Positions 13,803 through 25,485 of a stretch of 29,365 nt of DNA are shown here, one piece after another; the first letter of the stretch is position 1; each line of letters opens with the position of its first letter. The stretch is taken from UHGV virus genome UHGV-0335882; one strand, 5' to 3'. The notes beneath the pieces were generated by a model. That model did not search any database and had not been told where the DNA came from. It saw only the letters and a list, made by a program, of their open reading frames with translations. Origin of the DNA: a virus. The position numbers and the translations under genes are program-made.

Positions 13803-13828
<26 letters not shown>

Positions 13829-14348
13829 TCAGCAACCCCGGTATCAGTTCATCCAGCGCGGCTGCTTTGTTCATGGCTTTGATGATATCCCGTTTCAGGA
13901 AATCAACATGTCGGTTTTCCAGTTCCGGAAAACGCCGCTGCACCGACAGGGGGATCCCGTCGAGAATACTGGCAATTTCACCTGCGATCCGCGACAGCAC
14001 GAAAGTACAGAATGCGGTTTCCACCACTTCAGCGGAGTCTCTGGCATTTTTCAGCTCCTGTGCGTCGGCCTGCGCACGCGTAAGTCGATGGCGTTCGTAC
14101 TCAATAGTCCCTGGCTGGAGATCTGTCTCGCTGGCCTGTCGCAGTTCTTCAACCTCCCGGCGCAGCTTTTCGTTCTCAATTTCAGCATCCCTTTCGGCAT
14201 ACCATTTTATGACGTCGGCAGAGTCATAAAGCACCTCATTACCCTTCCCACCGCCTCGCAGAACGGGCATTCCCTGCTCCTGCCAGTTCTGAATAGTACG
14301 GATACTCGCGCCGAAAATGTCAGCCAGCTGCTTTTTGTTGACTTCCAT
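13803..14348 (-). CDS. Nu1: Terminase small subunit Nu1
   Basis: 181-aa ORF (MEVNKKQLADIFGASIRTIQNWQEQGMPVLRGGGKGNEVLYDSADVIKWY...) matches lambda Nu1; overlaps the A start as in lambda. Confidence 0.95.
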
Positions 14349-14349
14349 T

Positions 14350-14525
14350 GTTCATTCCACGGACAAAAACAGAGAAAGGAAACGACAGAGGCCAAAAAGC
14401 CCGTTTTCAGCACCTGTCGTTTCCTTTCTTTTCAGGGAGTGTTTTAAATAAAAACATTAAGTTACGGCGAAGAAGAACGGAAACGCCTTAAACCGGAAAA
14501 TTTTCATAAATAGCGAAAACCCGCG
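14350..14525 (-). other. cosB, terminase (Nu1) binding region with R-type repeats
   Basis: Reverse complement reads GGGCGGCGACCTCGCGGGTTTTCGCTATTTATGAAAATTTTCCGGTTTAAGGCGTTTCCGTTCTTCTTCG..., near-identical to the lambda left end as recalled. Repeated CGTTTCC/GGAAACG cores at about 14388-14398, 14416-14426 and 14466-14483 resemble lambda R1-R3. Confidence 0.75.
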
Positions 14526-14537
14526 AGGTCGCCGCCC
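14526..14537 (-). other. cosN, 12-nt cohesive-end sequence (GGGCGGCGACCT on the minus strand)
   Basis: Exact lambda cohesive-end 12-mer read on the minus strand, immediately upstream of the cosB-Nu1 region. Confidence 0.85.
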
Positions 14538-14685
14538 CGTAACCTGTTGGATCGACGGAAAGGACCCGAAAACGAGAATAATTATCACTTACAGCAAGAA
14601 TCGAATCTGATCTATTATGGTGCTTGCTATTATGTGCCGGCACAAGTGCGTCGTTTACCGTCATTTCACACAGAGGCATCATCAA

Positions 14686-14937
14686 ATGAAAATCAGAAAT
14701 ATTCTCGCTATCTCCCTTGCGACATCATCCTTCAGTTGCCTGGCATTTAAATCCTCGCCCAATGTGCTACCAGGACCAACGAATCAACTAACTGCGGTAG
14801 AAAGTAAAATTATCGGACATTTTTATGCCCCACACAGTACATTACCCGGAACAACCATCACAGGGACATGTGACGCCTCCCCCGTCCCGGGATGCACCTG
14901 TCCGTTTTGTACTATGCTGCGTAGCCAAAACCGATAA
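14686..14937 (+). CDS. Small secreted protein of unknown function (83 aa, Cys-containing)
   Basis: ATG at 14686 with GAGG 9 nt upstream. N-terminus MKIRNILAISLATSSFSCLA has signal-peptide character; mature part contains a TGTCDASPVPGCTCPFC cysteine cluster. The track ORF (from 14617) extends further 5' without a ribosome-binding site. No recognised family. Confidence 0.5.
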   Translation: MKIRNILAISLATSSFSCLAFKSSPNVLPGPTNQLTAVESKIIGHFYAPHSTLPGTTITGTCDASPVPGCTCPFCTMLRSQNR

Positions 14938-14998
14938 CATCCGCATTTACCTGGTATTCCATGATGAGTTCACGCAGCGACTGATAGAGGAAGGAAAG

Positions 14999-15178
14999 AT
15001 GGTTAGTAAAAGCAAGGCGCATTGCCGCCGCATGCTGCAGGCATTGCAACAGACGAGAGCAGGTATTTTTGACCAGTTGGAAAACTGCCAGCATACTTTG
15101 CCCGAGTATATCGCCATCTCATCGGAAACCAGTGCAACTCTTATTCATCGGGTTCCACCAGAGAAAAAGAAGAAATGA
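14999..15178 (+). CDS. Small hypothetical protein (59 aa, basic C-terminus)
   Basis: ATG at 14999 preceded by a strong GAGGAAGGA Shine-Dalgarno; in frame with track ORF 14825..15178 but starting after the stop of the upstream gene. Function unknown. Confidence 0.35.
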   Translation: MVSKSKAHCRRMLQALQQTRAGIFDQLENCQHTLPEYIAISSETSATLIHRVPPEKKKK

Positions 15179-15184
15179 ACAGTG

Positions 15185-15209
15185 AGGCGTTGTGTGGCAT
15201 ACAACGCCT
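15185..15209. terminator. Hairpin between convergent genes (AGGCGTTGT / loop 7 nt / ACAACGCCT)
   Basis: 9-bp perfect inverted repeat located between the plus-strand ORF ending at 15178 and the minus-strand lipoprotein gene ending at 15301; followed by TCTTCC on the plus strand. Confidence 0.4.
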
Positions 15210-15300
15210 TCTTCCATCATTCCTCGTCAGCCATGACAAAAATATAACCGCTGGCTCTTTCATTTTTCTCCTGCTTCCAGCCCCTCTCTACCTGGAAGCA

Positions 15301-15627
15301 TCAAGGACGTGACGGCGTAAAGATAAATTGTCTCTTCACTCCCTGACAGGGGCGATTCTTTTCAAATCGCCATTTCGCCATGGCCTTCACCACTTCATCA
15401 CGAAACAAATTATGAGGCTCTGAGCGGAGAAAAACGATCCGTGTCACAGTCCCATCAGCACCAATATCGAACTTAACCTCAACCAGCCCCTTGATATAAT
15501 TTGCTGCAGCATATTCCGGATATCGTGGATACACCGTCACTAATTGCCGGGGCTCATCAGCTTTTTGCTGCGAGCATCCCACTGCCAGGACAGATAACAG
15601 AAAAAGTAGTAAAAGGCGTCTTTTCAT
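15301..15627 (-). CDS. Lipoprotein with TonB C-terminal-like domain (108 aa)
   Basis: Start at internal ATG (15627): MKRRLLLLFLLSVLAVGCSQQ is a lipoprotein signal with lipobox LAVGC. Remainder aligns with the E. coli TonB C-terminal domain as recalled (GLVEVKFDIGADGTV...LFRDEVVKAMAKWRFEKNRP vs GQVKVKFDVTPDGRV...MFEREVKNAMRRWRYEPGKP). Confidence 0.8.
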   Translation of the reverse strand: MKRRLLLLFLLSVLAVGCSQQKADEPRQLVTVYPRYPEYAAANYIKGLVEVKFDIGADGTVTRIVFLRSEPHNLFRDEVVKAMAKWRFEKNRPCQGVKRQFIFTPSRP

Positions 15628-16092
15628 TTTTATTCCTACGGGTCTTATTCTGACAATATATCCTGTGTTCCAGACTGCCACATCACCACATCCTGTGCCA
15701 TTATCTGACTCACATTACATACATCGCATCGGGATACAGTAGTAGCACTTTCTGTAATACAGCTTCCTGTTTCTTCCACCATCGCACCGGGATAAACCCG
15801 CGAATCATTAACGCGGTAAAAACCCGGTGTGCATCGTTTTTAATTATTCCCGCACACTCACGCAGAAGGAATTCCCCGTCGGGCTACGGTCATGGTTAAT
15901 GCGGGAATACGGCGACGATACAGCGCAGCTAAAAGGGTAATGGACGGATAGACCGGTTTATTTCATTCCACAGGATTCTGAGTGTCCCCAACTTCCTCCA
16001 ATAGTCTGAGCCCACCTGTGTAGTTTTAATTTTCATCAATCCATTTAACTATCGTTTAATTGTTGTCACATAGGATTCTGCCGTTTTTAACA

Positions 16093-16236
16093 ATGCAGGA
16101 TAATAAGATGAAAAAAATGTTGTTTTCTGCCGCTCTGAGTCTGTTGTCGGCATTCTGGCAATGCAATTTGGATAAAGCGGGGATTAAAAAGATAGAGGCG
16201 AGCCGGTCAGGTAGAAATGAATCAGGCTCAAAGTGA
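16093..16236 (+). pseudogene. 5' stump of a bor/iss-family lipoprotein gene (first ~15 codons conserved, then unrelated sequence to a stop)
   Basis: Translation MQDNKMKKMLFSAAL... matches the N-terminus of Iss/Bor-family proteins as recalled. The lipobox (LITGC) and the rest of the protein are missing; the frame runs into unrelated sequence and stops after 47 codons. Position and orientation match where bor sits relative to cos in lambda. Confidence 0.6.
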
Positions 16237-16528
16237 AGCGGAAAAGGTCTGTGGCACAAGCTGATGCAGCCATAATTACAGCCTGATGATTTGTGGAATG
16301 AAACATGTTGAACCTCCTTAATTGATGTTATTCGAGTGATGAAGGCATTCTGTCCTTCTATAGTGTCCAGTAAATCAAACAGGAAACTTGTCCAACGTGT
16401 TGGACAAGCCTCTCCATTAGTGAGTTGTATTGATCACAACTCTACAAAGAATTCATTACTGGGTAGATGAAAATAGTTTCACTATGAATGGAGGAGGCTA
16501 TGTCGGTGGCTTCTTCATTGGAGTACAT

Positions 16529-16879
16529 ATGCCCCCACGAATCCCACGCGCCTGCCGTAAGCGTGGATGTGCAGGTACAACCACAGACAGTTCTGGTTAC
16601 TGCGATAAACATCGTGGCGAAGGATGGGTACAGCATCAACGCGGACTGAGCCGCCACCAGCGTGGCTATGGCTCGAAATGGGATGCCATACGTGCGCGCA
16701 TACTGAAGCGTGATAATCATCTGTGTCAGAACTGCCTGCGCAATGGGAGAGCCGTTGAAGCCAGAACTGTGGACCACATCATTCCGAAAGCTCATGGTGG
16801 CACGGATGCAGACAGTAACCTGCAGAGTCTGTGCTGGCCCTGTCATAAAGCAAAAACAGCGCGCGAACGCATCAATTGA
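16529..16879 (+). CDS. HNH endonuclease (terminase-associated, 116 aa)
   Basis: C-terminal HNH motif (CQNCLRNGRAVEARTVDHIIPKAHGGTDADSNLQSLCWPCHKAKT) with Cys-rich N-terminal part. Start set at ATG 16529 with GGAG 5 nt upstream; the track ORF starts further 5' at a TTG. Sits directly upstream of the terminase genes, as in HK97-type cos phages. Confidence 0.85.
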   Translation: MPPRIPRACRKRGCAGTTTDSSGYCDKHRGEGWVQHQRGLSRHQRGYGSKWDAIRARILKRDNHLCQNCLRNGRAVEARTVDHIIPKAHGGTDADSNLQSLCWPCHKAKTARERIN

Positions 16880-17026
16880 TAACAGTTCCCATCTGTAGGG
16901 GAGGGGCAGGCCAAATCTCTGCAACCCTGGCTGCTCAGTACCGCCGCCTGACCTTTCCTCGCATCGCCGCAGGTTCGAAAACTTTTTTTTGGAATGTGAT
17001 TAAATGATTGATAGGTAAAACCGATT
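16880..17026 (+). other. Intergenic region between HNH and small terminase; candidate cos site of the HK97-type module
   Basis: 147-bp non-coding gap at the position where HK97-type phages carry cos. Contains GC-rich motifs (GGGGAGGGGCAGG; CCGCCGCCTGACC, the latter resembling the CGCCGCC core of lambda cosN). Exact cut site not determinable by eye. Confidence 0.35.
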
Positions 17027-17509
17027 ATGTCTGGACCCCCGAAAACCCCGCCACGCCTGCATTTGATACGAGGCAACCCCTCAAAGCGGCCAGTTAAAGA
17101 CCTCAAAAAAACCGCTAAAAAGGATGAAAAAGGTCTCCCTAAAATTCCGCAACATTTAGGGGCGCAGGGGAAGTACTGGTTCAGGCGAATGGCGGAAGAG
17201 CTGAATGCGGAAGGGATCATTTCTCAGCTTGATGCGCGTGCGCTTGAGCTACTGGTGGAAGCCTATACCGAATACCGGCATCACTGCGAAACACTCGATG
17301 TTGAGGGGTACACCTACCGCTCGAAAACGCAGAACGGTGATGTGCTGATTAAGGCACACCCGGCTGCTGCGATGAAAGCGGATGCCTGGAAGCGGATCCG
17401 GGCGATGCTTGCAGAATTTGGTATGTCACCGGCAAGCCGGGCAAAAGTAAATACCGCCGGACCGGATAATGTTGATCCGCTGGCAGAGCTTTTAAAAGCG
17501 AGAGACTGA
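17027..17509 (+). CDS. Terminase small subunit (P27 family)
   Basis: 160-aa ORF with basic N-terminus and the C-terminal FGMSPASRAKV motif typical of the P27 family; immediately upstream of and overlapping the large terminase. Confidence 0.9.
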   Translation: MSGPPKTPPRLHLIRGNPSKRPVKDLKKTAKKDEKGLPKIPQHLGAQGKYWFRRMAEELNAEGIISQLDARALELLVEAYTEYRHHCETLDVEGYTYRSKTQNGDVLIKAHPAAAMKADAWKRIRAMLAEFGMSPASRAKVNTAGPDNVDPLAELLKARD

Positions 17510-19266
17510 TGGCAAAAGTGGCTGACGGGATCCGCTACGCCGAACGTGTTGTTGCAGGAGAAATTGTTGCTGGCGAATTTGTCCGCCTGGCCTGCCAGCG
17601 TTTTCTTGATGATCTGAAGTACGGCGAAAAGCGGGGGATTTATTTCAGTGAACCCCGTGCGCAGCACATCCTGAATTTCTACAAATTTGTGCCTCATGTA
17701 AAAGGGGCACTGGCAGGCCAGCCCATTGAGTTGATGGACTGGCATGTATTTATCCTCATTAATATTTTTGGTTTTGTCATTCCGCTGGTCAATGAAGAAA
17801 CCGGGGAAGTTGTCATGCGCAGCGATGGCAGCGGACGTCCGGTGATGGTGCGCCGGTTCCGGACGGCGTACAACGAAGTCGCCCGTAAAAACGCAAAATC
17901 AACCCTGTCATCGGGTATCGGCCTGTATATGACGGGGGCAGATAGTGAAGGCGGAGCTGAGGTGTATTCAGCCGCAACCACGCGTGACCAGGCCAGAATC
18001 GTGTTTGAAGACGCCAAAAATATGGTCAGAAAAGCCCGGTCGACACTCGGGCGGTTGTTTGATTTCAACAAGCTGGCGATTTACCAGGAGCAGAGCGCAT
18101 CAAAATTTGAACCGCTTTCCTCGGATGCAAACAACCTGGACGGTCTGAACATCCACTGCGCCATTATTGATGAGCTGCATGCACATAAAACCCGCGACGT
18201 GTGGGACGTTCTGGAAACGGCAACCGGTGCCCGTCTGCAGTCCCTGTTATTTGGTATCACCACGGCTGGCTTTAACAAGGAAGGGATTTGTTACGAGCAG
18301 CGTGATTACGCCATCAAGGTATTGCGAGGCTATAACAGCGACGTGGAGGGCGCTGTAAAAGACGACTCTTACTTTGCGATCATTTACACGCTTGATGAGG
18401 GAGATGATCCGTTTGATGAAACGGTCTGGCAGAAAGCGAATCCTGGCCTGGGCATCTGTAAACGCTGGGATGATCTGCGTCGTCTGGCGAAAAAAGCGAA
18501 GGAGCAGGTCTCTGCGCGGGTGAATTTTTTTACCAAACACATGAATGTGTGGGTCACTGCCGAATCTGCCTGGATGGATATGATTAAGTGGGAGAAGTGC
18601 GAATACATTGCTCCACAACATGAGCTGAAAACATATCCCATGTGGGTCGGCGTCGACCTTGCTCATAAGATTGATATCTGTGCGGCGGCAAAACTCTGGC
18701 GAACCGATAACGGACATGTTCATGCTGATTTTAAATTCTGGCTTCCGGAAGGACGGCTGGAACGATGCTCGCGGCAGCAGGCAGAACTTTACCGGAAGTG
18801 GGCGGAGATGGATAAGCTCATCCTGACGGATGGTGATGTTATCGATCATGCTCAGATAAAAAGTGACTTACTGGAATGGATTGGCGGTGAAAACCTCAGG
18901 GAACTGGGATTTGACCCGTGGAGCGCAATGCAGTTCAGTCTGGCACTGGCTGAAGAAGGGATACCGCTGGTGGAGGTTCCGCAGACGGTCCGCAATCTGT
19001 CAGAGGCCATGAAGGAAACGGAATCACTGGTTTATGCCGGGCGTTTCCATCACAGCAATCATCCGGTCATGAACTGGATGATGTCTAACGTTACTGTAAA
19101 ACCGGACAAAAACGACAACATCTTCCCGAATAAATCCACGCCGGAAGCCAAAATCGACGGCCCTGTTGCGCTTTTTACAGCCATGAGCCGCTTTCTGGTA
19201 AATGGCGGGGGCGTGAATGACTTTCTGTCCACGCTTGATCCTGATGAGGACCTGTTAATTCTGTGA
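17509..19266 (+). CDS. Terminase large subunit
   Basis: 585-aa ORF; start overlaps the small-terminase stop (TGATG); size, position and sequence character consistent with HK97-type large terminase. Confidence 0.93.
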   Translation: MAKVADGIRYAERVVAGEIVAGEFVRLACQRFLDDLKYGEKRGIYFSEPRAQHILNFYKFVPHVKGALAGQPIELMDWHVFILINIFGFVIPLVNEETGEVVMRSDGSGRPVMVRRFRTAYNEVARKNAKSTLSSGIGLYMTGADSEGGAEVYSAATTRDQARIVFEDAKNMVRKARSTLGRLFDFNKLAIYQEQSASKFEPLSSDANNLDGLNIHCAIIDELHAHKTRDVWDVLETATGARLQSLLFGITTAGFNKEGICYEQRDYAIKVLRGYNSDVEGAVKDDSYFAIIYTLDEGDDPFDETVWQKANPGLGICKRWDDLRRLAKKAKEQVSARVNFFTKHMNVWVTAESAWMDMIKWEKCEYIAPQHELKTYPMWVGVDLAHKIDICAAAKLWRTDNGHVHADFKFWLPEGRLERCSRQQAELYRKWAEMDKLILTDGDVIDHAQIKSDLLEWIGGENLRELGFDPWSAMQFSLALAEEGIPLVEVPQTVRNLSEAMKETESLVYAGRFHHSNHPVMNWMMSNVTVKPDKNDNIFPNKSTPEAKIDGPVALFTAMSRFLVNGGGVNDFLSTLDPDEDLLIL

Positions 19267-19283
19267 AACAGCTTATTACTGAT

Positions 19284-19424
19284 ATGACCGGGCTGATCGG
19301 TTTCGGTCTGCTCACTGCTGGCGTTTATCTGTATGCAGGTCTGCCAGCGTCTCTGATGCTGTCTGGCTGTTTGTTGCTGCTTTATGCACTGGTGGTGTCC
19401 ATGAGGAGAAAACATGCTTCTTGA
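19284..19424 (+). CDS. Small hydrophobic ORF (46 aa) between terminase and portal
   Basis: MTGLIGFGLLTAGVYLYAGLPASLMLSGCLLLLYALVVSMRRKHAS, a single predicted transmembrane helix; no clear Shine-Dalgarno; overlaps the portal start. Speculative. Confidence 0.25.
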   Translation: MTGLIGFGLLTAGVYLYAGLPASLMLSGCLLLLYALVVSMRRKHAS

Positions 19425-20640
19425 TGCTCTGTTTCGCAGTGAGCCTCTGGAAAATCCCTCGGTTCCGGTAACCGGAGAGGCCGCAGAGACGGATAATATT
19501 TTTGCCCGGGATGTGTATGTCAGTCCGGAAACGTCCATGAGGCTGGCTGCTGTCTATGCCTGTATTTATGTTATTTCATCCAGTGTGGCTCAGATGCCCC
19601 TGCATGTGATGCGAAAAACGAATGAGCATGTTCAGCCGGCACGCGATCACCCGTTGTTCTGGCTCGTTCATGATGAACCGAATGCCTGGCAGACCAGCTA
19701 TAAGTGGCGGGAACTGAAGCAGCGTCATGTGCTGGGGTGGGGCAATGGTTATACGTGGGTGAAACGTAATCGTCGTGGCGAGGTTACCAGTCTTGAATGC
19801 TGTATGCCATGGGAAACCACGTTACTTAACACCGGAGGGCGTCATACCTACGGTGTGTATAACGAAGAGGGTGCATTTGCGGTAAGTCCGGACGACATGA
19901 TCCATATCAGGGCGCTGGGAAACAATCAGAAAATGGGACTGAGTCCGATCATGCAGCATGCTGAAACCATTGGTATGGGAATGAGTGGTCAGCAGTATAC
20001 CAGTGCTTTTTTTAACGGTAATGCCCGTCCTGCCGGGATTATTTCTGTGAAAAATGAACTGAACGAACAGAGTTGGAGCAGGCTCAAGAATATGTGGCAG
20101 CGGGCGGTGACAGCGCTTCGCAGCCAGGAAAATAAAACCATGTTGCTGCCTGCGCAACTGGATTACCGCGCTCTGACAGTTTCTCCGGTGGATGCTCAGA
20201 TCATTGATATGACCAAGCTGAACCGGTCGATGATTGCCGGGATTTTTAATGTCCCGGCGCACATGATTAATGACCTGGAAAAAGCCACATTTTCGAATAT
20301 TACGCAGCAGGCGATTCAGTTTGTTCGCTACACGATGATGCCCTGGGTTGCGAACTGGGAGCAGGAGCTTAACCGTCGCCTGTTTACCCGTACAGAACGG
20401 GCTGCCGGGTATTACGTTCGTTTCAACCTCACGGGGTTGCTCCGTGGGACCCCACAGGAGCGTGCGCAGTTCTATCACTTTGCCATTACAGATGGCTGGA
20501 TGAGTCGGAATGAAGCCAGGGCATTTGAGGATATGAACCCGGTTGACGGTCTGGATGAAATGCTGGTCAGCGTAAATGCAGCAAATCCGTTGAATAACTT
20601 TAAAGATACGAAAGGCAAAGAGGAAAAGAACGATGAATGA
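19414..20640 (+). CDS. Portal protein (HK97 family)
   Basis: 408-aa ORF following the large terminase, GAGGAG Shine-Dalgarno 5 nt upstream; length and position typical of HK97-family portal. Confidence 0.93.
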   Translation: MLLDALFRSEPLENPSVPVTGEAAETDNIFARDVYVSPETSMRLAAVYACIYVISSSVAQMPLHVMRKTNEHVQPARDHPLFWLVHDEPNAWQTSYKWRELKQRHVLGWGNGYTWVKRNRRGEVTSLECCMPWETTLLNTGGRHTYGVYNEEGAFAVSPDDMIHIRALGNNQKMGLSPIMQHAETIGMGMSGQQYTSAFFNGNARPAGIISVKNELNEQSWSRLKNMWQRAVTALRSQENKTMLLPAQLDYRALTVSPVDAQIIDMTKLNRSMIAGIFNVPAHMINDLEKATFSNITQQAIQFVRYTMMPWVANWEQELNRRLFTRTERAAGYYVRFNLTGLLRGTPQERAQFYHFAITDGWMSRNEARAFEDMNPVDGLDEMLVSVNAANPLNNFKDTKGKEEKNDE

Positions 20641-21232
20641 CCGTGAAACGCGCTGTTACAGCGGGGAGGTGCGGGCGGAACAATATGATAATGCCCCGAC
20701 CCACATTCTGGGCTATGGCTCGGTATTTAACAGTCGTTCAGAACCTCTGTGGGGATTTCGTGAAATCATCAAGCCGGGGGCTTTTGATGATGTACTGAAT
20801 GATGATGTACGTGGCTTGTTTAATCATGATCCTAATTTCATTCTCGGACGAAGTTCTGCCGGCACGTTGTCATTGTCGGTGGATGAACGCGGTTTACGTT
20901 ATGACATTGTTGCACCGGATACTCCGACTATTTGTGACCTGGTGCTATCTCCAATGTTGCGTGGTGACATTAATCAGTCCTCGTTCGCGTTTCGTGTCGC
21001 CCGTGACGGAGAGAGCTGGTATGAAGACGACGAGGGGATTGTTATCCGGGAAATCACGCGCATTTCTCGTCTGTATGACGTCAGCCCGGTGACATATCCG
21101 GCCTATCAGGACGCAGACTCTGGTGTCCGCTCAATGAAAGCCTGGCAGGAAGCGCGGGCGAGTGGTGCGCTGAAGAAAGCTGTTAACGAACGAATGGCGC
21201 GTGAGCGTCTTTTGACCCTTCTTAATGCATAA
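20633..21232 (+). CDS. Prohead maturation protease (HK97 family)
   Basis: 199-aa ORF overlapping the portal stop (ATGAATGA), located between portal and major capsid genes; size and position typical of HK97-family prohead protease. Confidence 0.9.
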   Translation: MNDRETRCYSGEVRAEQYDNAPTHILGYGSVFNSRSEPLWGFREIIKPGAFDDVLNDDVRGLFNHDPNFILGRSSAGTLSLSVDERGLRYDIVAPDTPTICDLVLSPMLRGDINQSSFAFRVARDGESWYEDDEGIVIREITRISRLYDVSPVTYPAYQDADSGVRSMKAWQEARASGALKKAVNERMARERLLTLLNA

Positions 21233-21246
21233 GGATACTACTGACG

Positions 21247-22464
21247 ATGAAACTTCATGAGATGAAGCAAAAACGAAACACCATTGCAAAGGATATGCGT
21301 GCACTGCATGAAAAAATTGGTGATAACGCATGGACTGATGAGCAACGGGCAGAGTGGAACAGGGCGAAAGCTGAGCTGGATGCGCTGGATGAGCAAATCG
21401 CCCGTGAAGAAGAGTTGCGCCGTCAGGATCAGGCATATGTGGATGAGTCCGGGCCGGAAGAGCGCCAGAATAATGAGGCGGAGAACGGGAAAAAGGCGGT
21501 GGAAGAGAAGCGCGCTGCGGCATTTAACCGTTTTCTGCGTGCCGGATTTGCAGAACTGAATGCTGAAGAGCGTAATCTGATGCGTGAACTGCGGGCTCAG
21601 AGTGTAACAACGGATTCTCAGGGCGGATATACGGTGCCCACGCAGATGCGTAACAAAATCATTGACACCATGAAGGCTTATGGCGGGATTGCCAGTGTGG
21701 CGCAACTTCTGACCACATCAACCGGGCAGGATATCACCTGGTCAACGTCTGATGGCACGACTGAAGAGGGCGAACTGCTGGCGGAAAATACAGCCGCAAC
21801 GGAACAGGATGTGACGTTCGGGACCGCTATTCTGGGGGCTAAAAAGCTGTCATCAAAAATAATTCGTGTGTCCAATGAGCTGCTCCAGGACAGTGGGGTG
21901 GATATTGAATCTTATCTGGCAAACCGTATTGCCCAGCGTATTGGTCGTGGAGAGGCAAAATATCTGGTTCAGGGGACCGGAACGGGATCACCGTTACAGC
22001 CAAAAGGGCTGGCAGCGTCGGTGACGGGAACCATCCAGACTGTAGCCTCTGCCGCTTTCACCTGGAAAGAAATGAATGCCCTGAAACATGCCATTGATCC
22101 GGCATATCGTGGTGGGCCGAAATACCGCTGGGCATTCAATGATGCCACATTGCAGACTATTGAAGAGATGGAGGATGGACAGAAACGCCCGTTATGGCTG
22201 CCGGATATTGCAGGCGGTACGCCGGCTACTGTGCTGGGGATCCCTTATGTTATTGATCAGGCTATTGACGGGATTGGTACCGGAAAAAAATTCATTTTCC
22301 TGGGGGATTTCAACCGCTTTATCATTCGCCGCGTTACTTATATGGAACTGAAACGTCTGGTTGAGCGTTATGCTGAGTTTGATCAGGTGGCATTTCTGGC
22401 TTTCCATCGTTTTGACTGTGTGCTGGAAGATGTGGCAGCCATCAAGGCGCTCACTGGCAAATAA
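21247..22464 (+). CDS. Major capsid protein (HK97 fold, with N-terminal delta/scaffold domain)
   Basis: 405-aa ORF; N-terminal ~100 aa is charged and coiled-coil-like (EQRAEWNRAKAELDALDEQIAREEELRRQ), typical of a delta domain removed by the adjacent protease; followed by an intrinsic terminator. Confidence 0.93.
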   Translation: MKLHEMKQKRNTIAKDMRALHEKIGDNAWTDEQRAEWNRAKAELDALDEQIAREEELRRQDQAYVDESGPEERQNNEAENGKKAVEEKRAAAFNRFLRAGFAELNAEERNLMRELRAQSVTTDSQGGYTVPTQMRNKIIDTMKAYGGIASVAQLLTTSTGQDITWSTSDGTTEEGELLAENTAATEQDVTFGTAILGAKKLSSKIIRVSNELLQDSGVDIESYLANRIAQRIGRGEAKYLVQGTGTGSPLQPKGLAASVTGTIQTVASAAFTWKEMNALKHAIDPAYRGGPKYRWAFNDATLQTIEEMEDGQKRPLWLPDIAGGTPATVLGIPYVIDQAIDGIGTGKKFIFLGDFNRFIIRRVTYMELKRLVERYAEFDQVAFLAFHRFDCVLEDVAAIKALTGK

Positions 22465-22485
22465 CCACTCGTTGTTCAGTTACAG

Positions 22486-22507
22486 ACCGCGCCGACGCGG
22501 TTTTTTT
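22486..22507 (+). terminator. Rho-independent terminator after the major capsid gene (ACCGCG-CCGA-CGCGGT followed by T7)
   Basis: 6-bp GC-rich stem, 4-nt loop and a 7-T run, 22 nt downstream of the capsid stop codon. Confidence 0.6.
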
Positions 22508-22540
22508 ATGCCCGCACAGTGTTGCGGGCAGGAGTTTCTG

Positions 22541-22858
22541 ATGGCAGCAATAGTGGAAAAACTCAGGGCGCAGTGCCGTATTGATACAGATGATGCAACT
22601 GATGATGAGTTACTGATGCTGTATTTCCGGGCTGCCTGCCGCAAGGCAGAAAATTTTATCAACCGTAAGCTTTATGAGGAGACGGTGCCGGAAGGTGATC
22701 CTGAAGGGGTGCTTATAGCTGATGATGTTTTGCTGGCGCTCATGTTGCTGGTCGGGCACTGGTACGAAAACCGGGAAAATTCCTCAGATGTCAGCAAGGC
22801 ACCAGTCCCGTTTGGTTTTTCTTCTCTGCTGGAGCCTTATCGTTTTATTCCTTTGTAG
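22541..22858 (+). CDS. Head-tail connector protein (gp6-like)
   Basis: Start at ATG 22541 with GGAG 6 nt upstream (track ORF extends 5' through the terminator). Product MAAIVEKLRAQCRIDTDDATDDELLMLYFRAACRKAENFINRKL... resembles the gp6-like connector family. Confidence 0.75.
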   Translation: MAAIVEKLRAQCRIDTDDATDDELLMLYFRAACRKAENFINRKLYEETVPEGDPEGVLIADDVLLALMLLVGHWYENRENSSDVSKAPVPFGFSSLLEPYRFIPL

Positions 22859-22866
22859 GAGGAGAC

Positions 22867-23205
22867 ATGCAGGCGGGCAGATTACGTGATCGCGTAATTA
22901 TTCTGAATGTCACCACCGCCCGCTCTCCGTCAGGGCATCCGGTGGAGACGGTGACGGAGGGAGCTACCGTATGGGCAGAAGTTAAGGGTATCAGCGGGAG
23001 GGAGATAATCTCAGGCGGAGCAGAAACCGCTCAGGCTACGGTCAGAGTCTGGATGAGATTCCGGCGCGATGTGACAGCGACTTCACGTCTGAAAGTGCTG
23101 ACCGGTGCATTTAAAGGGGCCATTCTGGGTATAGAAGGTCCACCAATACCGGATGCACGCGCTACCCGGCTTGAAATACTCTGCAGCCTGAAGGGGAATG
23201 TGTGA
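22867..23205 (+). CDS. Head closure / head-tail joining protein (gp7-like)
   Basis: 112-aa ORF (MQAGRLRDRVIIL...WAEVKGISGREI...VRVWMRFRRDV...) with the pattern typical of head closure proteins; position after the connector gene. Confidence 0.75.
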   Translation: MQAGRLRDRVIILNVTTARSPSGHPVETVTEGATVWAEVKGISGREIISGGAETAQATVRVWMRFRRDVTATSRLKVLTGAFKGAILGIEGPPIPDARATRLEILCSLKGNV

Positions 23206-23651
23206 TGGATTTCAGTCTTGATTTTTCCGGCCTGGCGGATATTGCACGGGATTTGGAGACGCTCAGCAGGGCAGAAAACAATAAGGTTCTGCGCGATGCC
23301 ACCCGTGCCGGTGCTGAAGTTATGCGGGATGCAGTTGTTGAACGTGCGCCGGAGCGAACCGGGAAACTGAAGAAAAATGTGGTTGTTCTCACTCAGCGTT
23401 CAAAGCGTCGGGGGGAAATTATCTCGGGTGTCCACATTCGCGGACGGAACCTGCGAACCGGAAACAGTGATAACAGCATGAAAGCCAGCGATCCCCGAAA
23501 TGCATTTTACTGGCGCTTTGTGGAGCTGGGAACGATAAACATGCCCGCGCATCCATTCATTCGCCCGGCTTTCGATACGACAGAGGAACTGGCAGCACGG
23601 ATTGCCATACAGCGAATGAATCAGGCTATTGATGAGGTCTTAAGTAAATGA
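23202..23651 (+). CDS. HK97 gp10-family neck/tail-completion protein
   Basis: 149-aa ORF containing RFVELGTINMPAHPFIRPAFD, the conserved motif of the HK97 gp10 family; 4-nt overlap with the upstream gene. Confidence 0.75.
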   Translation: MMDFSLDFSGLADIARDLETLSRAENNKVLRDATRAGAEVMRDAVVERAPERTGKLKKNVVVLTQRSKRRGEIISGVHIRGRNLRTGNSDNSMKASDPRNAFYWRFVELGTINMPAHPFIRPAFDTTEELAARIAIQRMNQAIDEVLSK

Positions 23652-23992
23652 GAGAGGCCACACTGTATTCCCTGTTGTCTCAGCTGGCCGGAGGACAGGT
23701 TTATCCTTATGTGGTCCCACTGACGGAGGGAAAGCCTGCGGTATCTCCGCCGTGGCTGGTGTTTTCTGTGGTGTCTGACACGGCATCTGATGTGCTTGAT
23801 GGGCAGGCTGAATCCAGAATTACCGTGCAGATCGATGTCTGGGCGACAGTACCTGATGACGCAGATAATATTCGTGAGCAGGCGCTTGATGCGGTAAGAA
23901 AACTGGCACCCTCCGTTATTTCTAAAACGCAGGGTTATGATCCTGACTCCCGTCTGAGCAGAGCCACGCTTGAATTTCAGGTAATAGCCTGA
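23648..23992 (+). CDS. Tail terminator/completion protein (gp11-like)
   Basis: 114-aa ORF directly upstream of the major tail gene with 4-nt overlap to the preceding gene; assigned by position and size. Confidence 0.65.
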   Translation: MREATLYSLLSQLAGGQVYPYVVPLTEGKPAVSPPWLVFSVVSDTASDVLDGQAESRITVQIDVWATVPDDADNIREQALDAVRKLAPSVISKTQGYDPDSRLSRATLEFQVIA

Positions 23993-24012
23993 GGTCATTA
24001 ATGATTTTACCC

Positions 24013-24036
24013 ACCCGCCGCTGGCGGGTTTTTTTA
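24013..24036 (+). terminator. Terminator-like hairpin before the major tail gene (ACCCGCC-GCT-GGCGGGT followed by T7)
   Basis: 7-bp GC stem with a 3-nt loop followed by a T-run, in the 60-nt gap before the major tail protein start codon. Confidence 0.5.
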
Positions 24037-24052
24037 TTTTCAGGAGACGAGT

Positions 24053-24757
24053 ATGTCCTCTAATTTTGAGCGTTCGCAACTGACGAAAATTATGATTTCG
24101 TCTGCACCGGTAACAGCAGAAACCCTGGATTCTGCCAGCTATCTTGGCCTGAGCTGTACAATCAAAGAGGTGCAGTTTACCGCAGGACAAAAGCAGGATA
24201 TTGATGTCACCACGCTGTGTTCTGTTGAGCAGGAAAATATTAACGGTCTTGGTGCCGCGTCAGAGATTTCCATGTCAGGCAACTTTTATCTGAATGCTGC
24301 CCAGAACGCGTTGCGCAGTGCCTATGACAATGACACCACGTATGGCTTTAAAGTTATTTTTCCGTCAGGCAACGGATTTACCTTTATGGCAGAGGTGCGT
24401 CAGCATACCTGGTCTGCAGGAACCAATGGTGTTGTGGCTGCAACGTTTTCCTTGCGCCTGAAAGGTAAACCTGTGCTGACGACAGAGCCGCTGAAAGTGA
24501 AGGCCGATTTAAAAAGCACGCTGCGGGTTGCTTCCGGAGCGAAACTTGAAATGGCGGTTGAGGCTGCGGGTGGTGTGCCGCCTTATTCTTATGTCTGGAA
24601 GAAAGGTGGTTCTCCTGTTTCCGGACAGACGGCGGCAACGTTCAGTAAGGCATCGGCAGTATCCGGTGATGCGGGTGCATATACCTGCGAGATTTCTGAT
24701 TCAGCAAGCCCGGTTAACAAAGTGACCTCCACTTCCTGCACTGTAACCGTCAGTTAA
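24053..24757 (+). CDS. Major tail protein with C-terminal Ig-like domain
   Basis: 234-aa ORF following the neck genes with a GGAG ribosome-binding site. C-terminal ~85 aa (…GGVPPYSYVWKKGGSPVSGQTAATFSKASAVSGDAGAYTCEISDSASPVNKVTSTSCTVTVS) has immunoglobulin-like sequence character. Confidence 0.8.
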   Translation: MSSNFERSQLTKIMISSAPVTAETLDSASYLGLSCTIKEVQFTAGQKQDIDVTTLCSVEQENINGLGAASEISMSGNFYLNAAQNALRSAYDNDTTYGFKVIFPSGNGFTFMAEVRQHTWSAGTNGVVAATFSLRLKGKPVLTTEPLKVKADLKSTLRVASGAKLEMAVEAAGGVPPYSYVWKKGGSPVSGQTAATFSKASAVSGDAGAYTCEISDSASPVNKVTSTSCTVTVS

Positions 24758-24771
24758 TGAGGATGGATGTG

Positions 24772-25143
24772 ATGACTAAAAATATCCGTAATCTGGCACT
24801 GGCAACGATGTCGGGGTTTCGCCATAAAACCGTTGATGTGCCTGAATGGGAGGGAGCAACGGTTGTGTTACGGGAACCTTCTGCAGAAGCCTGGTTGCGC
24901 TGGCAGGAGATCGTTAAAGCAAAAGATGATGAGACACCGTTATCCGTTGCGGAGCGCGCCCGCCGAAATCTGGAGGCAGATGTTGAACTGTTCATTGATG
25001 TTCTGTGTGATACCGGACTGCAACCCGTATTTTCAGAGGATGATCGTGAACAGGTGATTGCCGTGTATGGCCCGGTGCATGCGCGGCTTCTTCGGCAGTC
25101 TCTGGAACTGATCAGTGATGCCGGCGAGGTTAAAAAAAAGTAG
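24772..25143 (+). CDS. Tail assembly chaperone (gpG-like)
   Basis: ORF between major tail and tape measure genes, acidic, ending …DAGEVKKK. Start at ATG 24772 with GAGGA 8 nt upstream; an alternative ATG at 24757 overlaps the upstream stop. Confidence 0.75.
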   Translation: MTKNIRNLALATMSGFRHKTVDVPEWEGATVVLREPSAEAWLRWQEIVKAKDDETPLSVAERARRNLEADVELFIDVLCDTGLQPVFSEDDREQVIAVYGPVHARLLRQSLELISDAGEVKKK

Positions 25144-25445
25144 CGCTTCCGGGGATGCGTTTTCTGATGATGCTGGCGCTCAGGATGGGGCGCACATTGT
25201 CAGAGTTACGCCGGGAAATGTCCGCATCAGAAATCATGATGTGGGCAGAATTTGACAGGTTCAGCCCGCTGGGGGACGAACGGGCTGATATCCGGGCTGC
25301 CCAGATTGTTTCAGCTGTTTACGGTGCGCAGGGGGTCAAAGTGCCACTGAATGATGCGCTTCTTCAGTGGGAGAAGGAGCAGACAGAAGGCGTATCAGAT
25401 CCATTTGCCGGACTGGAAAACGCGCTTTTAATAGTGTCTCAGTGA
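24772..25445 (+). CDS. Predicted tail chaperone frameshift fusion (gpGT-like), -1 shift at A AAA AAG
   Basis: Downstream ORF (…MRFLMMLALRMGRTLSELRREMSASEIMMWAEF…) is in the -1 frame and has no separate ribosome-binding site; slippery heptamer A AAA AAG sits at the end of the upstream chaperone frame. Confidence 0.6.
25134..25140 (+). other. Putative -1 programmed frameshift slippery heptamer A AAA AAG
   Basis: AAA (25135-25137) and AAG (25138-25140) are the last two sense codons of the chaperone zero frame; the -1 frame continues open for 101 codons to the stop at 25443-25445. Confidence 0.6.
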
Positions 25446-25453
25446 GTCAACAT

Positions 25454-25476: not shown

Positions 25477-25485
25477 GTCCGGAGA

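What the first reader, a model, noticed from the sequence alone, without database searches (positions are those of the whole stretch)
14686..15178. Pair of small accessory genes beside cos: a secreted Cys-cluster protein and a small basic protein
Just beyond cosQ, on the strand opposite the late operon, lie an 83-aa protein with a clear signal peptide and a C-terminal cysteine cluster (TGTCDASPVPGCTCPFC), and a 59-aa protein with a strong ribosome-binding site and a lysine-rich tail. Neither resembles lambda proteins I can recall. Accessory genes at this position often encode lysogenic-conversion or exclusion functions. The two ORFs overlap an alternative reading frame, so the gene models are uncertain.
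Basis: inference. Interest (0 to 1): 0.4.

Follow-up and report, generated by a model that had tools for sequence, protein, structure and literature searches.

The report
Missed secreted cysteine-motif gene beside cos
Of the two small genes proposed next to the phage packaging site, the 83-residue secreted four-cysteine protein is real, is missing from the reference annotations, and belongs to an unnamed bacterial family that elsewhere sits behind predicted zinc-starvation operators, while the 59-residue one shows no sign of being a gene.

Summary
The window from 14538 to 16137 is 100% identical to the right end of phage 21. Both ORFs exist exactly as described.

ORF-A (14686-14937, +, 83 aa) is a real gene. 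It has 82-85-aa relatives at 25-77% identity in Escherichia, Salmonella, Citrobacter, Klebsiella plasmids, Buttiauxella, Serratia, Erwinia, Pantoea and Superficieibacter. dN/dS is 0.06-0.27 with saturated synonymous sites. The A20|F21 signal-peptidase site and C70 and C72 are invariant; C62 and C75 are in at least 90% of sequences. It matches no Pfam, NCBIfam, PHROG, PADLOC or PDB entry, and it is not annotated in phage 21 or RefSeq E. coli.

Outside phages, relatives lie behind Zur-box palindromes (TGTTATnnnATAACA) and beside zinc-starvation genes (pliG, folE2, dksA2, COG0523, pyrC2/hemB2, aztABCD). The phage copies lack that box. They carry a Fur-box-like site, candidate promoters and a strong downstream hairpin, which is the layout of a moron.

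ORF-B (14999-15178, +) has no diverged homologues, 3 synonymous against 8 non-synonymous SNPs, and a frameshift in 8 of 142 copies. The antisense 60-aa ORF that RefSeq and the phage 21 record annotate has 0 synonymous, 9 non-synonymous, and a premature stop in 50 of 142 copies.

Zinc binding by ORF-A is inferred, not shown.

The parts
14526..14537 (.). cosN cohesive end (AGGTCGCCGCCC, the complement of GGGCGGCGACCT). It marks the end of the phage genome.
   Evidence: Read from the sequence. The linear phage 21 record ends at window 14538.
14561..14567 (-). cosQ (GGGTCCT on the - strand)
   Evidence: Annotated in phage 21 OL657228.1 at the identical sequence.
14568..14592 (.). Fur-box-like element (GAAAACGAGAATAATTATCACTTAC), made of overlapping hexamer-phased matches. 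It overlaps the -35 of candidate promoter P1.
   Evidence: These are the only matches with at most 5 of 19 mismatches to the Fur consensus in the whole 29-kb window. The 71%-identical phage copy (L028/L029) has a perfect TGATAATAATTATCA at the same place. Function was not tested.
14589..14633 (+). Candidate sigma-70 promoters for ORF-A. P1 is TTACAG (14589-14594), 18 nt, TATTAT (14613-14618). P2 is an extended -10, TGCTATTAT (14625-14633).
   Evidence: Read from the sequence. The simple scanner did not list them. P2 is nearly invariant in 70 copies, whereas the P1 -10 is changed in the EHEC lineage. Inference only.
14686..14937 (+). ORF-A, a real gene for an 83-aa pre-protein. Codons 1-20 (14686-14745) are the Sec signal peptide, with cleavage CLA|F. 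The mature protein is about 63 aa. The Cys4 motif C62-x7-C70-x-C72-P-F-C75 spans 14869-14910, followed by LR.
   Evidence: Homologues of 82-85 aa in nine genera. dN/dS is 0.06-0.27 with dS saturated. A20, F21, C70 and C72 are invariant in 54 sequences, and C62 and C75 are in at least 90%. Within 142 near-identical copies there are 5 synonymous and 4 non-synonymous SNPs.
14999..15178 (+). ORF-B, the 59-aa ORF with a strong Shine-Dalgarno sequence and KKKK tail. It is probably not a gene and most likely lies in the 3' untranslated region of the ORF-A transcript.
   Evidence: Only 4 near-identical or frameshifted hits among 5.8 billion proteins. No diverged DNA or protein homologue in any locus. 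3 synonymous against 8 non-synonymous SNPs; a +1 insertion after 15013 in 8 of 142 copies; a further indel in 1.
14912..15094 (-). Antisense 60-aa ORF, annotated as a hypothetical protein in RefSeq (WP_000881610.1), phage 21 (CPT_21_75) and PHROG 3744. It is not a conserved gene.
   Evidence: 0 synonymous and 9 non-synonymous SNPs; a premature stop (E46*) in 50 of 142 copies; a frameshift in 8 of 142.
15184..15210 (.). Stem-loop of 12 bp (GAGGCGUUGUGU-GGC-AUACAACGCCUU) between the convergent ORF-A unit and the TonB_C gene. It is a candidate bidirectional terminator with a weak U tract.
   Evidence: For 15170-15240, dG is -23.2 kcal/mol and z is -3.5 against shuffles. The terminator scan did not list it because there is no T run.
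15301..15627 (-). Neighbouring moron: a 108-aa lipoprotein (LAVGC lipobox) made of a TonB C-terminal domain.
   Evidence: Pfam TonB_C 7e-13 and TIGR01352. For SNPs seen in at least 2 copies, 6 synonymous against 4 non-synonymous; in the first sample, 8 against 4 with pN/pS 0.16. The same gene in LF82 prophage Perceval is transcribed 8-fold above prophage background (PMC9928086).
16108..16137 (+). The first 30 nt of bor/iss. Homology to phage 21 ends here.
   Evidence: Local blastn of phage 21 and RefSeq loci against the window; phage 21 annotation.

Best explanation
ORF-A (14686-14937, +) is a genuine phage-carried accessory gene, a moron.

The product. It encodes an 83-aa precursor with a Sec signal peptide. 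Signal peptidase I would cut after Ala20 (CLA|F). That releases a roughly 63-aa periplasmic protein whose conserved core is FY(S)xH ... G-T-C-x7-C-x-C-P-F-C-x-x-L-R.

The family. It is an unnamed family of Enterobacterales. Its chromosomal and plasmid members are transcribed from promoters that carry Zur operators and sit inside zinc-starvation islands. The family's normal role is therefore in the cell envelope when zinc is scarce.

Most likely mechanism (inferred). The four-cysteine CPxC-type knuckle, perhaps with the nearby His, captures Zn(II) or another thiophilic metal in the periplasm. It then hands the metal to ZnuA/AztC-type binding proteins. Alternatively, the four Cys form two disulfides that brace a small binding peptide.

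The phage copy. It has lost the Zur operator. It lies between cosQ and a strong hairpin, on the strand opposite the late operon. It has its own promoter candidates and a Fur-box-like site. It would therefore be expressed from the prophage independently of late transcription, possibly under iron control. Alongside it sit the other envelope and metal morons of this phage: the TonB_C lipoprotein and Bor/Iss.

The 59-aa ORF-B and the antisense 60-aa ORF annotated in RefSeq are most likely not genes. This stretch is the 3' untranslated part of the ORF-A transcript.

Shown: the gene is real, selection acts on it, the motif is conserved, Zur boxes and zinc-island neighbours accompany relatives, the phage copy lacks the Zur box, and the other two ORFs show no constraint.

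Inferred: export and the cleavage site, expression in lysogens, Fur control, and metal binding.
For: Gene reality:
- Relatives of 82-85 aa at 25-77% identity in nine genera.
- dN 0.16-0.6 with saturated dS, and dN/dS 0.06-0.27 where it can be computed.
- A20, F21, C70 and C72 invariant; C62, C75, G69, P66, L78 and R79 in at least 90% of 54 sequences.

Signal peptidase I rather than a lipobox:
- Cys18 is replaced by Ala, Val or Met in distant members, while A-x-A|F stays.

Zur link:
- In 154 kb of fetched loci, all 4 perfect TGTTATnnnATAACA cores lie at these promoters. Two are upstream of the homologue (L008 at -36, L019 at -107). Two are upstream of pliG, which directly precedes the homologue (L006, L007).
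- 8 of the 11 two-mismatch hits also lie at these promoters.
- Further one-mismatch boxes are in L030 (about -40) and L096 (-116), and perfect ones before pliG in L099/L100.
- pliG is an experimentally shown Zur target in E. coli (PMC4219657).

Neighbours of relatives:
- pyrC2-hemB2 and aztABCD (L019).
- thrS2, pyrC2 and hemB2 (L027).
- folE2, COG0523 and a Fur-family repressor (L018).
- An aztD-like gene plus a ZnuA-family gene (L096).
- thrS2, gamma-CA, folE2, dksA2 | gene | COG0523, zur, cysS2 (L097/L098).
- A divergent SBP_bac_5 ABC importer (L022/L023).

Moron layout in the phage:
- The position next to cos is the same in a second lambdoid prophage whose protein is only 71% identical (L028/L029).
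- The gene is absent from lambda and most phages.
- The best Zur-core match upstream is 5 mismatches.
- A Fur-like site is unique in the window and perfect in L028.
- The hairpin has z = -3.5.
- The adjacent TonB_C gene is an expressed moron in LF82.

ORF-B and ORF60(-) not constrained.
Against: - There are no expression, export or metal-binding data for ORF-A or any relative.
- AlphaFold models are poor (pLDDT 46 and 56), so no metal site or disulfide pattern can be read.
- Cysteines in the oxidising periplasm are more often disulfide-bonded than metal ligands.
- His50 is not invariant.
- Some family members have no Zur box and no zinc neighbours: the Salmonella 80-aa subfamily after traT and DUF1090 (L024-26), Klebsiella L020, and all cos-linked copies.
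- The phage copy itself therefore cannot be placed in the Zur regulon.
- The Fur-like site lies about 95-118 nt upstream of the ATG. It overlaps only one of the two candidate promoters.
- Promoter calls were made by eye. The consensus scanner did not report them.
- The hairpin lacks a clear U tract.
- For ORF-B the SNP counts are small (3 against 8) and cannot exclude weak selection or a young lineage-specific protein. A 48-codon ORF survives in the frameshifted lineage.
Confidence: 0.6

Rival explanations
1. ORF-A is real and exported, but its four cysteines form two disulfides in a small knotted peptide whose job has nothing to do with binding metal. It could be an inhibitor of a host or phage envelope enzyme (like the lysozyme inhibitor PliG that precedes it in Salmonella), a surface-exclusion factor, or a secreted signal. 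Under this reading, Zur control in relatives only reflects a general 'inside the host' cue.
For: Periplasmic Cys are usually oxidised by DsbA (established knowledge). In Salmonella subspecies the gene lies directly after pliG and before bor and pgtE. In another Salmonella subfamily it lies after the serum-resistance gene traT. In phages it is grouped with bor/iss and a TonB_C lipoprotein. All of these are envelope-defence genes rather than transporters. AlphaFold finds no defined fold.
Against: The neighbours in Pantoea, Superficieibacter, Erwinia and the Klebsiella plasmids are specifically zinc-sparing and zinc-uptake genes. The CPxC knuckle is a classic zinc-ligand pattern. There is no similarity to any known inhibitor or defence protein.
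Confidence: 0.25
2. One reading: ORF-A and ORF-B are both genes and form a two-gene accessory operon ending at the hairpin at 15184-15210.
For: ORF-B has a strong Shine-Dalgarno sequence (GAGGAAGG), starts 61 nt after the ORF-A stop, and ends 6 nt before the hairpin. It is called as a gene in some records and forms PHROG 4843. No premature stop was seen in its frame among 142 copies.
Against: ORF-B has no homologue beyond near-identical DNA. It never accompanies ORF-A in diverged loci, including the second phage lineage L028, where a DUF3950 gene follows instead. It has 3 synonymous against 8 non-synonymous SNPs, pN/pS about 0.7-0.8, and in the 48-codon core 0 against 5. A +1 frameshift after codon 5 occurs in a lineage seen in 483 collection blocks. 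SNP density of the segment (0.052 per nt) is higher than in ORF-A (0.024) or the TonB_C gene (0.037).
Confidence: 0.12
3. The RefSeq and phage 21 annotation is right. The real gene here is the 60-aa ORF on the late-operon strand (14912-15094, -), expressed from the Q-antiterminated late transcript, and the plus-strand ORFs are spurious.
For: It is chosen by PGAP and by the phage 21 annotators, shares the orientation of the late operon, and is PHROG 3744.
Against: It has 0 synonymous and 9 non-synonymous SNPs, a premature stop at codon 46 in 50 of 142 copies, and a frameshift in 8 of 142. Its ribosome-binding site is weak, and no homologue was found in any diverged locus fetched here. It also cannot explain the deep conservation of ORF-A.
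Confidence: 0.03

Closest known systems
Lambda Bor / Iss and other morons at the right end of lambdoid genomes
   Same: A small envelope-directed protein gene placed between the lysis genes and cos. It is transcribed against the late operon, has its own promoter and a hairpin after it, and is variable among related phages. In Salmonella the relative sits directly next to a bor homologue.
   Different: There is no sequence relationship. ORF-A is not a lipoprotein: Cys18 is not conserved in the family. Its expression in lysogens has not been shown.
Zur-regulated periplasmic zinc-handling proteins (ZinT, AztD, Neisseria Zcp)
   Same: Exported accessory proteins encoded behind Zur boxes and next to ZnuA/AztC-type importers and zinc-sparing paralogues. 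That is where ORF-A relatives lie.
   Different: Those proteins are much larger, use mainly His/Asp/Glu ligands and have known folds. ORF-A is about 63 aa mature with a Cys4 motif, has no detectable similarity to them, and no metal-binding data. The phage copy has no Zur box.
Periplasmic cysteine-based metal binders (MerP GMTCxxC, CopG CxCC); comparison from my own knowledge
   Same: Small Sec-exported proteins that bind a thiophilic metal through closely spaced cysteines despite the oxidising periplasm.
   Different: No sequence or profile match. Their metals are Hg and Cu and they belong to resistance operons, not starvation regulons. The resemblance is only a lead.
PliG (YcgK), a periplasmic lysozyme inhibitor and Zur-regulon member
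   Same: A small exported protein under Zur control with no obvious zinc role (PMC4219657). In four Salmonella subspecies the ORF-A relative follows pliG by about 95 nt on the same strand, behind the same perfect Zur box.
   Different: Unrelated sequence. PliG has a PPC-type fold, and no inhibitor activity is known for ORF-A.
RefSeq WP_000881610.1 / CPT_21_75 / PHROG 3744, and PHROG 4843
   Same: These database entries cover the same DNA (14912-15178) and are the current 'known' annotation of the locus.
   Different: They describe the antisense 60-aa ORF and ORF-B, which the population data do not support. The conserved gene ORF-A has no PHROG, Pfam or NCBIfam family.

Membership tests
Protein-coding gene under purifying selection (ORF-A) | The ORF, its length and its frame are conserved in diverged relatives, with dN/dS well below 1. 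| tested here: met
   Relatives of 82-85 aa at 25-77% identity. dN/dS 0.06-0.27 with dS saturated.
Protein-coding gene under purifying selection (ORF-B, 59 aa) | Diverged homologues, or an excess of synonymous change, with the frame kept intact. | tested here: not met
   No diverged homologue. 3 synonymous against 8 non-synonymous SNPs, and a frameshift in 8 of 142 copies. The counts are small, so weak selection is not excluded.
Protein-coding gene under purifying selection (antisense ORF60, RefSeq WP_000881610.1) | The frame is intact across copies, with an excess of synonymous change. | tested here: not met
   0 synonymous against 9 non-synonymous SNPs; stop E46* in 50 of 142 copies; frameshift in 8 of 142.
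Sec / signal peptidase I exported protein | N-terminal basic residues, a hydrophobic core, and small residues at -3 and -1 before the cut. | tested here: met
   MK(I/V)(R/K) followed by a 13-15-residue hydrophobic stretch. A-x-A|F has A20 and F21 invariant in 54 sequences. This rests on pattern and conservation only. No SignalP-type predictor or experiment was used.
Bacterial lipoprotein (signal peptidase II) | A conserved lipobox [LVI][ASTVI][GAS]C with an invariant Cys. | tested here: not met
   SFSC18 is present only in the Escherichia, Salmonella, Citrobacter, Klebsiella and Buttiauxella members. Distant members have A, V or M at that position and keep ALA|F.
Phage moron (autonomous accessory transcription unit) | Not part of the conserved phage gene set and variably present among relatives. 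| tested here: met
   Found in 7 of 50,697 phage records, all phage 21-type. Absent from lambda. Present at the same site in a second lambdoid lineage. Relatives occur in non-phage loci.
Phage moron (autonomous accessory transcription unit) | Own promoter and terminator, and transcription in the lysogen. | tested here: inconclusive
   Promoter-like hexamers at 14589-14633 were read by eye and were not reported by the scanner. A strong hairpin lies at 15184-15210 but without a U tract. Expression is not testable here. The adjacent TonB_C gene is expressed in LF82 lysogens.
Zur regulon (family level) | A Zur operator (TGTTATnnnATAACA-type palindrome) in the promoter. | tested here: met
   Boxes with 0-2 mismatches lie upstream of relatives in L008, L009, L010, L019, L022/23, L027, L030 and L096. 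Perfect boxes lie before pliG-linked copies. Four of 4 perfect and 8 of 11 two-mismatch hits in 154 kb are at these promoters. Zur binding itself was not tested.
Zur regulon (the copy in this window) | A Zur operator in the promoter. | tested here: not met
   The best match between cos and the ATG has 5 of 12 mismatches. The same holds for the other cos-linked copies L005, L018 and L028.
Fur regulon (the copy in this window) | A Fur box overlapping the promoter, and iron-dependent repression. | tested here: inconclusive
   A 15 of 19 match at 14568-14586 with hexamer-phased neighbours. It is the only such site in 29 kb. A perfect 7-1-7 box lies at the same place in L028/29. Regulation is not testable here.
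Zinc-binding Cys4 knuckle protein | Four conserved Cys including a CPxC knuckle, and bound Zn(II). | not testable with these tools
   The motif C-x7-C-x-C-P-x-C is conserved. Models are too poor to show a site (pLDDT 46 and 56). No PDB relative by sequence or fold.
Any curated protein family (Pfam, NCBIfam, PHROGs, PADLOC) | A significant profile match. | tested here: not met
   No hit at E <= 1 for ORF-A or for the distant members tested.

The most novel reading that the evidence does not exclude
ORF-A and its relatives form a new class of very small periplasmic zinc-capture proteins, about 63 aa with a Cys4 knuckle, that belong to the Zur regulon of Enterobacterales. Lambdoid phages have captured one, removed it from Zur control and placed it behind a Fur-type operator. 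As a result, about a quarter of E. coli genomes (1232 of 5426 complete genomes) carry a prophage-supplied factor against host metal withholding, next to Bor/Iss and a TonB-domain lipoprotein.
Probability: 0.2. Interest if true: 0.7.

Novelty: new member of a known kind. Interest (0 to 1): 0.48.

Why it matters
This is a conserved gene in one of the classic lambdoid phages. It is present in 1232 of 5426 complete E. coli genomes and, as a 63%-identical relative, on at least 64 Klebsiella plasmids (most of the 73 matching plasmid records are typed conjugative). Yet it is missing from the reference phage 21 and RefSeq annotations, which instead list an antisense ORF that carries a premature stop in a third of copies.

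The family has no name or profile in Pfam, NCBIfam or PHROGs. I found no description of it in the zinc-regulon papers I read. Even so, comparative genomics places it firmly among zinc-starvation genes.

If the protein does handle zinc, it adds a new very small component to bacterial defence against host metal withholding. It would also show a phage rewiring a host metal-stress gene as cargo.

Practically, the result corrects the gene model of this locus. It also gives a short, testable list of experiments.

Tried and rejected
- Lipoprotein reading of SFSC18. Rejected because Cys18 is not conserved in distant members.
- Profile searches of ORF-A, ORF-B, ORF60(-) and distant relatives against Pfam, PHROGs, NCBIfam and PADLOC. 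Nothing was found for ORF-A. PHROGs 4843 and 3744 merely mirror near-identical annotations of the two overlapping ORFs and cannot decide between them.
- PDB sequence profile search and Foldseek with the model: no matches.
- Two AlphaFold runs (15 and 54 sequences): pLDDT 46 and 56, too poor to interpret.
- Rfam on 14300-16300: only chance-level microRNA and sRNA hits inside cosB.
- Search for diverged ORF-B or ORF60 copies by protein search, tblastn and blastn on all loci: none. One apparent 62% hit (P0026/L011) is a frameshift-ridden assembly.
- The metagenome scan for diverse relatives returned only 99-100% copies among the 80 kept. I used these to enlarge the SNP sample.
- A Zur box in the window copy: absent.
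- Literature: no paper holds the peptide strings. The supplements of the EHEC Sakai ribosome-profiling small-gene study do not contain either peptide. The Zur reviews and regulon papers I read list no such protein.
- Pseudomonas PA5534 was considered as a possible analogue, but no sequence comparison could be made.
- The 106-aa (start 14617) and 117-aa (14825-15178) models were rejected. The N-terminal extension and the alternative frame are not conserved in relatives.
Full report
**Where the finding sits**

The window carries a lambda-type late operon on the minus strand. It ends with Nu1 at 13803-14348. Then come cos (cohesive end 14526-14537) and cosQ (14561-14567). From 14538 to 16137 the window is 100% identical to the right end of Escherichia phage 21 (OL657228.1). 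It is 99.8-100% identical to phages ev017, Perceval and PhiR47_2, PhiR57_1 and PhiR63_2. The same 700 bases occur in 1232 of 5426 complete E. coli genomes, nearly always at 99% identity or more.

**The observation**

- ORF-A runs from ATG 14686 to the stop at 14935-14937. It has 83 codons, with GAGG nine bases upstream.
- ORF-B runs from ATG 14999 to the stop at 15176-15178. It has 59 codons, is preceded by GAGGAAGGAAAG and ends in KKKK.

- The phage 21 record and RefSeq/PGAP annotate a 60-aa ORF on the opposite strand (14912-15094; CPT_21_75, WP_000881610.1). The phage 21 record adds a 40-aa ORF (15141-15263, -).
- PhiR47_2 annotates 14634-14750(+) and a 117-aa ORF at 14825-15178(+).
- None of them annotates ORF-A.
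- PHROGs contains a family for ORF-B (4843) and one for the antisense ORF (3744). Both are built from near-identical sequences, so they cannot decide between the two.

**ORF-A is a real gene**

A protein search found 82-84-aa relatives at 55-77% identity in E. coli, Citrobacter, Klebsiella and Salmonella. A profile search of 1.84 billion representatives and a second profile search extended the family. Members of 79-85 aa, at 25-50% identity, occur in Serratia, Erwinia, Pantoea and Superficieibacter, and Buttiauxella copies (52-57%) came from the genome scan.

Codon alignments of nine loci give dN of 0.16-0.64 with synonymous sites saturated. Where dN/dS can be computed it is 0.06-0.27.

Across 54 sequences A20, F21, C70 and C72 are invariant. 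K2, L11, F46, Y47, G60, C62, P66, G69, C75, L78 and R79 are present in at least 90%. The family signature is MK(I/V)-hydrophobic-A-x-A|F(K/Q) ... FY(S)xH ... G-T-C-x7-C-x-C-(P/A)-x-C-x-x-L-R.

Cys18 (SFSC) looks like a lipobox in the Escherichia, Salmonella, Citrobacter, Klebsiella and Buttiauxella members. In distant members it is A, V or M, while the ALA|F site is kept. Signal peptidase I cleavage after residue 20 is therefore the better reading. That leaves a 63-aa mature protein with exactly four cysteines.

The 106-aa model (start at 14617) and the overlapping 117-aa frame are not conserved in relatives.

ORF-A matches nothing in Pfam, NCBIfam, PHROGs, PADLOC or PDB sequences. Two AlphaFold runs gave only pLDDT 46 and 56, and Foldseek found nothing.

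**ORF-B and the antisense ORF are not supported**

ORF-B returned four hits in 5.8 billion proteins. All are near-identical or frameshifted versions. No fetched locus with a diverged ORF-A has anything like ORF-B, ORF60(-) or ORF40(-) next to it. A blastn search with 14938-15300 finds only near-identical DNA.

I therefore used polymorphism. I collected 142 full-length copies (43 haplotypes) from IMG/VR, metagenomes and genomes.

| ORF | Synonymous : non-synonymous SNPs | Other lesions |
|---|---|---|
| ORF60(-) | 0 : 9 | Premature stop E46* in 50 of 142 copies; frameshift in 8 of 142 |
| ORF40(-) | 3 : 8 | Premature stop in 8 of 142 copies |
| ORF-B | 3 : 8 (pN/pS about 0.7-0.8; 48-codon core 0 : 5 in the first sample) | +1 insertion after 15013 in 8 of 142; second indel in one copy |
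| ORF-A | 5 : 4 (pN/pS about 0.27) | none |
| TonB_C gene | 8 : 4 in the first sample (pN/pS 0.16) | none among variants seen in at least 2 copies |

The ORF-B insertion separates its start codon and ribosome-binding site from the rest. It marks a lineage seen in 483 collection blocks.

SNP density in 14938-15300 is 0.052 per nt. That exceeds ORF-A (0.024) and TonB_C (0.037). The counts are small, so a young, weakly selected ORF-B cannot be excluded. Still, nothing supports it, and the RefSeq gene is clearly untenable.

A 12-bp stem-loop at 15184-15210 (dG -23.2 kcal/mol for 15170-15240, z = -3.5) lies six bases after the ORF-B stop. It sits between the convergent ORF-A and TonB_C units. The simplest reading is that 14938-15183 is the 3' untranslated region of the ORF-A transcript.

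**What the family is associated with**

Outside phages, the neighbours are strikingly consistent.

- **Klebsiella plasmid pBio30:** pyrC2 and hemB2 paralogues, then an oxidoreductase, then the gene, then aztDCBA.
- **Superficieibacter:** thrS paralogue, pyrC2, hemB2, then the gene.
- **Pantoea:** thrS paralogue, gamma-carbonic-anhydrase-like, folE2, dksA2 | gene | COG0523, a Fur-family regulator, cysS paralogue.
- **Erwinia:** the gene next to an aztD-like gene and a ZnuA-family gene.
- **Klebsiella IncF plasmids (64 records, 100% identical):** the gene beside folE2, COG0523 and a Fur-family repressor.
- **Serratia:** the gene divergent from an SBP_bac_5 ABC importer.
- **Four Salmonella subspecies:** pliG, the gene, bor, pgtE.

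I scanned all fetched loci for the enterobacterial Zur-box core TGTTATnnnATAACA.

- In 154 kb, all four perfect matches lie at these promoters. They are at -36 in Buttiauxella noackiae, at -107 in pBio30, and before pliG in the two Salmonella loci.
- Eight of the eleven two-mismatch matches are also there. They are in Citrobacter sp. at -36, B. warmboldiae at -38, Serratia at -43/-38 and Superficieibacter at -109/-104.
- Later loci added one-mismatch boxes in C. koseri (about -40) and Erwinia (-116). They also added perfect boxes before pliG in S. salamae, and a three-mismatch site in the Pantoea dksA2 intergenic region.

pliG is an experimentally proven Zur target in E. coli (PMC4219657). The family is thus, by comparative genomics, a member of the zinc-starvation regulon. 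I found no description of such a protein in the Zur papers I read.

**The phage copies are different**

The window, its EHEC variant, the degraded E. coli copy L005, the Klebsiella IncF copy L018 and a second lambdoid prophage lineage (L028/L029, protein 71% identical) all have the gene immediately after cos or a recognisable cos remnant. It is oriented against the late operon in the intact prophages.

None of them has a Zur box. The best match in the window has 5 mismatches.

Instead, the only Fur-consensus matches in the whole 29-kb window (15 of 19, hexamer-phased) are at 14568-14592, between cosQ and ORF-A. L028/L029 has a perfect TGATAATAATTATCA at the same place. A clearly homologous element precedes bor in Salmonella.

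Promoter-like hexamers follow: TTACAG, 18 nt, TATTAT at 14589-14618, and an extended -10, TGCTATTAT, at 14625-14633. These were read by eye. The extended -10 is almost invariant in the population sample.

Promoter, gene and hairpin in an otherwise late region, with variable presence among related phages, is the classic moron layout. The adjacent TonB_C lipoprotein gene is transcribed 8-fold above prophage background in LF82 lysogens. ORF-A was not annotated in that study and so was not scored (PMC9928086).

**Mechanism**

Shown:
- A conserved, selected gene.
- A conserved signal-peptide pattern and Cys4 motif.
- Zur boxes and zinc-island context for relatives.
- Loss of that box in the phage copies.

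Inferred:
- Export and cleavage.
- Expression from the prophage.
- Possible iron (Fur) control.
- The biochemical role.

I favour periplasmic capture or hand-off of zinc through the C-x7-C-x-C-P-x-C knuckle. Two things point that way: the neighbours are zinc importers and zinc-sparing paralogues, and CPxC is a typical zinc ligand pattern.

The main rival is a disulfide-braced peptide with a non-metal envelope role. In favour of that rival, periplasmic cysteines are usually oxidised. Several copies also sit among serum-resistance and lysozyme-inhibitor genes (bor, traT, pliG). No tool here can separate the two.

**Novelty and verdict**

A small moron beside cos is an ordinary kind of thing, and the pair as proposed does not hold. 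The result is nonetheless useful in three ways.

- It recovers a real gene that the reference annotations miss.
- It shows that the annotated antisense gene is spurious.
- It links an unnamed family of small secreted proteins to zinc starvation, with a phage-borne, differently wired copy in about a quarter of E. coli genomes.

I score it as a new member of a known kind, of moderate interest.

Noticed in passing
window 16108-16138 and 16138-29365: Identity to phage 21 stops at 16137, 30 nt into bor/iss. From 16138 the window is a different prophage module (HNH endonuclease, P27-family small terminase, large terminase, portal through tape measure) on the + strand. That module is 100% identical to ST131 genomes. 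None of 5426 complete E. coli genomes covers the junction; the best coverage is 82%.
   Followed up: partly
window 15301-15627 (-): A 108-aa lipoprotein consisting of a TonB C-terminal domain (Pfam 7e-13). PHROG 1267 labels it 'Rz-like spanin', which looks wrong. It is under purifying selection and is an expressed moron in LF82 prophage Perceval. A lipid-anchored TonB domain could interfere with TonB-dependent uptake of phages or colicins. That idea comes from my own knowledge and was not tested.
   Followed up: partly
window 14568-14592; L028 3866-3880; L006 4341-4355: A Fur-box-like element next to cosQ, and the only such site in the window. It is perfect in a second phage lineage. A homologous copy (AAATGATAAAAATTATCATTT, followed by TATAAT) lies about 110 nt upstream of the bor homologue in Salmonella. 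This suggests that iron control of bor-type morons moved together with this element.
   Followed up: partly
L018 4830-5001 (Klebsiella pneumoniae IncF plasmid NZ_CP047635.1): The plasmid copy of the gene still has a recognisable cos remnant upstream (…TTTTTCATAAACAGCGAAAACCCACATGGTCACCGCCCC…). It nevertheless lies beside folE2, COG0523 and a Fur-family repressor. So a phage-derived copy has landed in, or been kept next to, a zinc-starvation island. It is unannotated in 64 plasmid records.
   Followed up: partly
P0108, P0110 (627 and 611 aa, metagenomic proteins): Long asparagine-rich, eukaryote-like proteins carry 4-5 repeats of P(I/L)PGCNCPKCT(N/E)LR(N/K). This closely resembles the C-terminal PVPGCxCPFCTMLR of ORF-A. 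No Pfam domain covers the repeat.
   Followed up: no
L030 (Citrobacter koseri) 4046-4300: A relative with a one-mismatch Zur box lies directly next to icd, the attachment site used by phage 21 and e14. It may be a leftover of a phage 21-like prophage, or the kind of place from which a phage picked the gene up.
   Followed up: no
L008 1645-1860 and L010 4379-4633 (Buttiauxella): A conserved 71-84-aa two-helix membrane protein (…RRI(I/V)WIVVAIAGVVSLSVADSTIDANNIVHDSALMP…) follows the ORF-A relative in both Buttiauxella species. It is a possible partner gene.
   Followed up: no
window 15645-15782 (-) and 15141-15263 (-): Two more tiny ORFs are annotated in phage 21 (CPT_21_72, 45 aa; CPT_21_74, 40 aa). 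The 40-aa one has a premature stop in 8 of 142 copies. The 45-aa one was not examined.
   Followed up: partly
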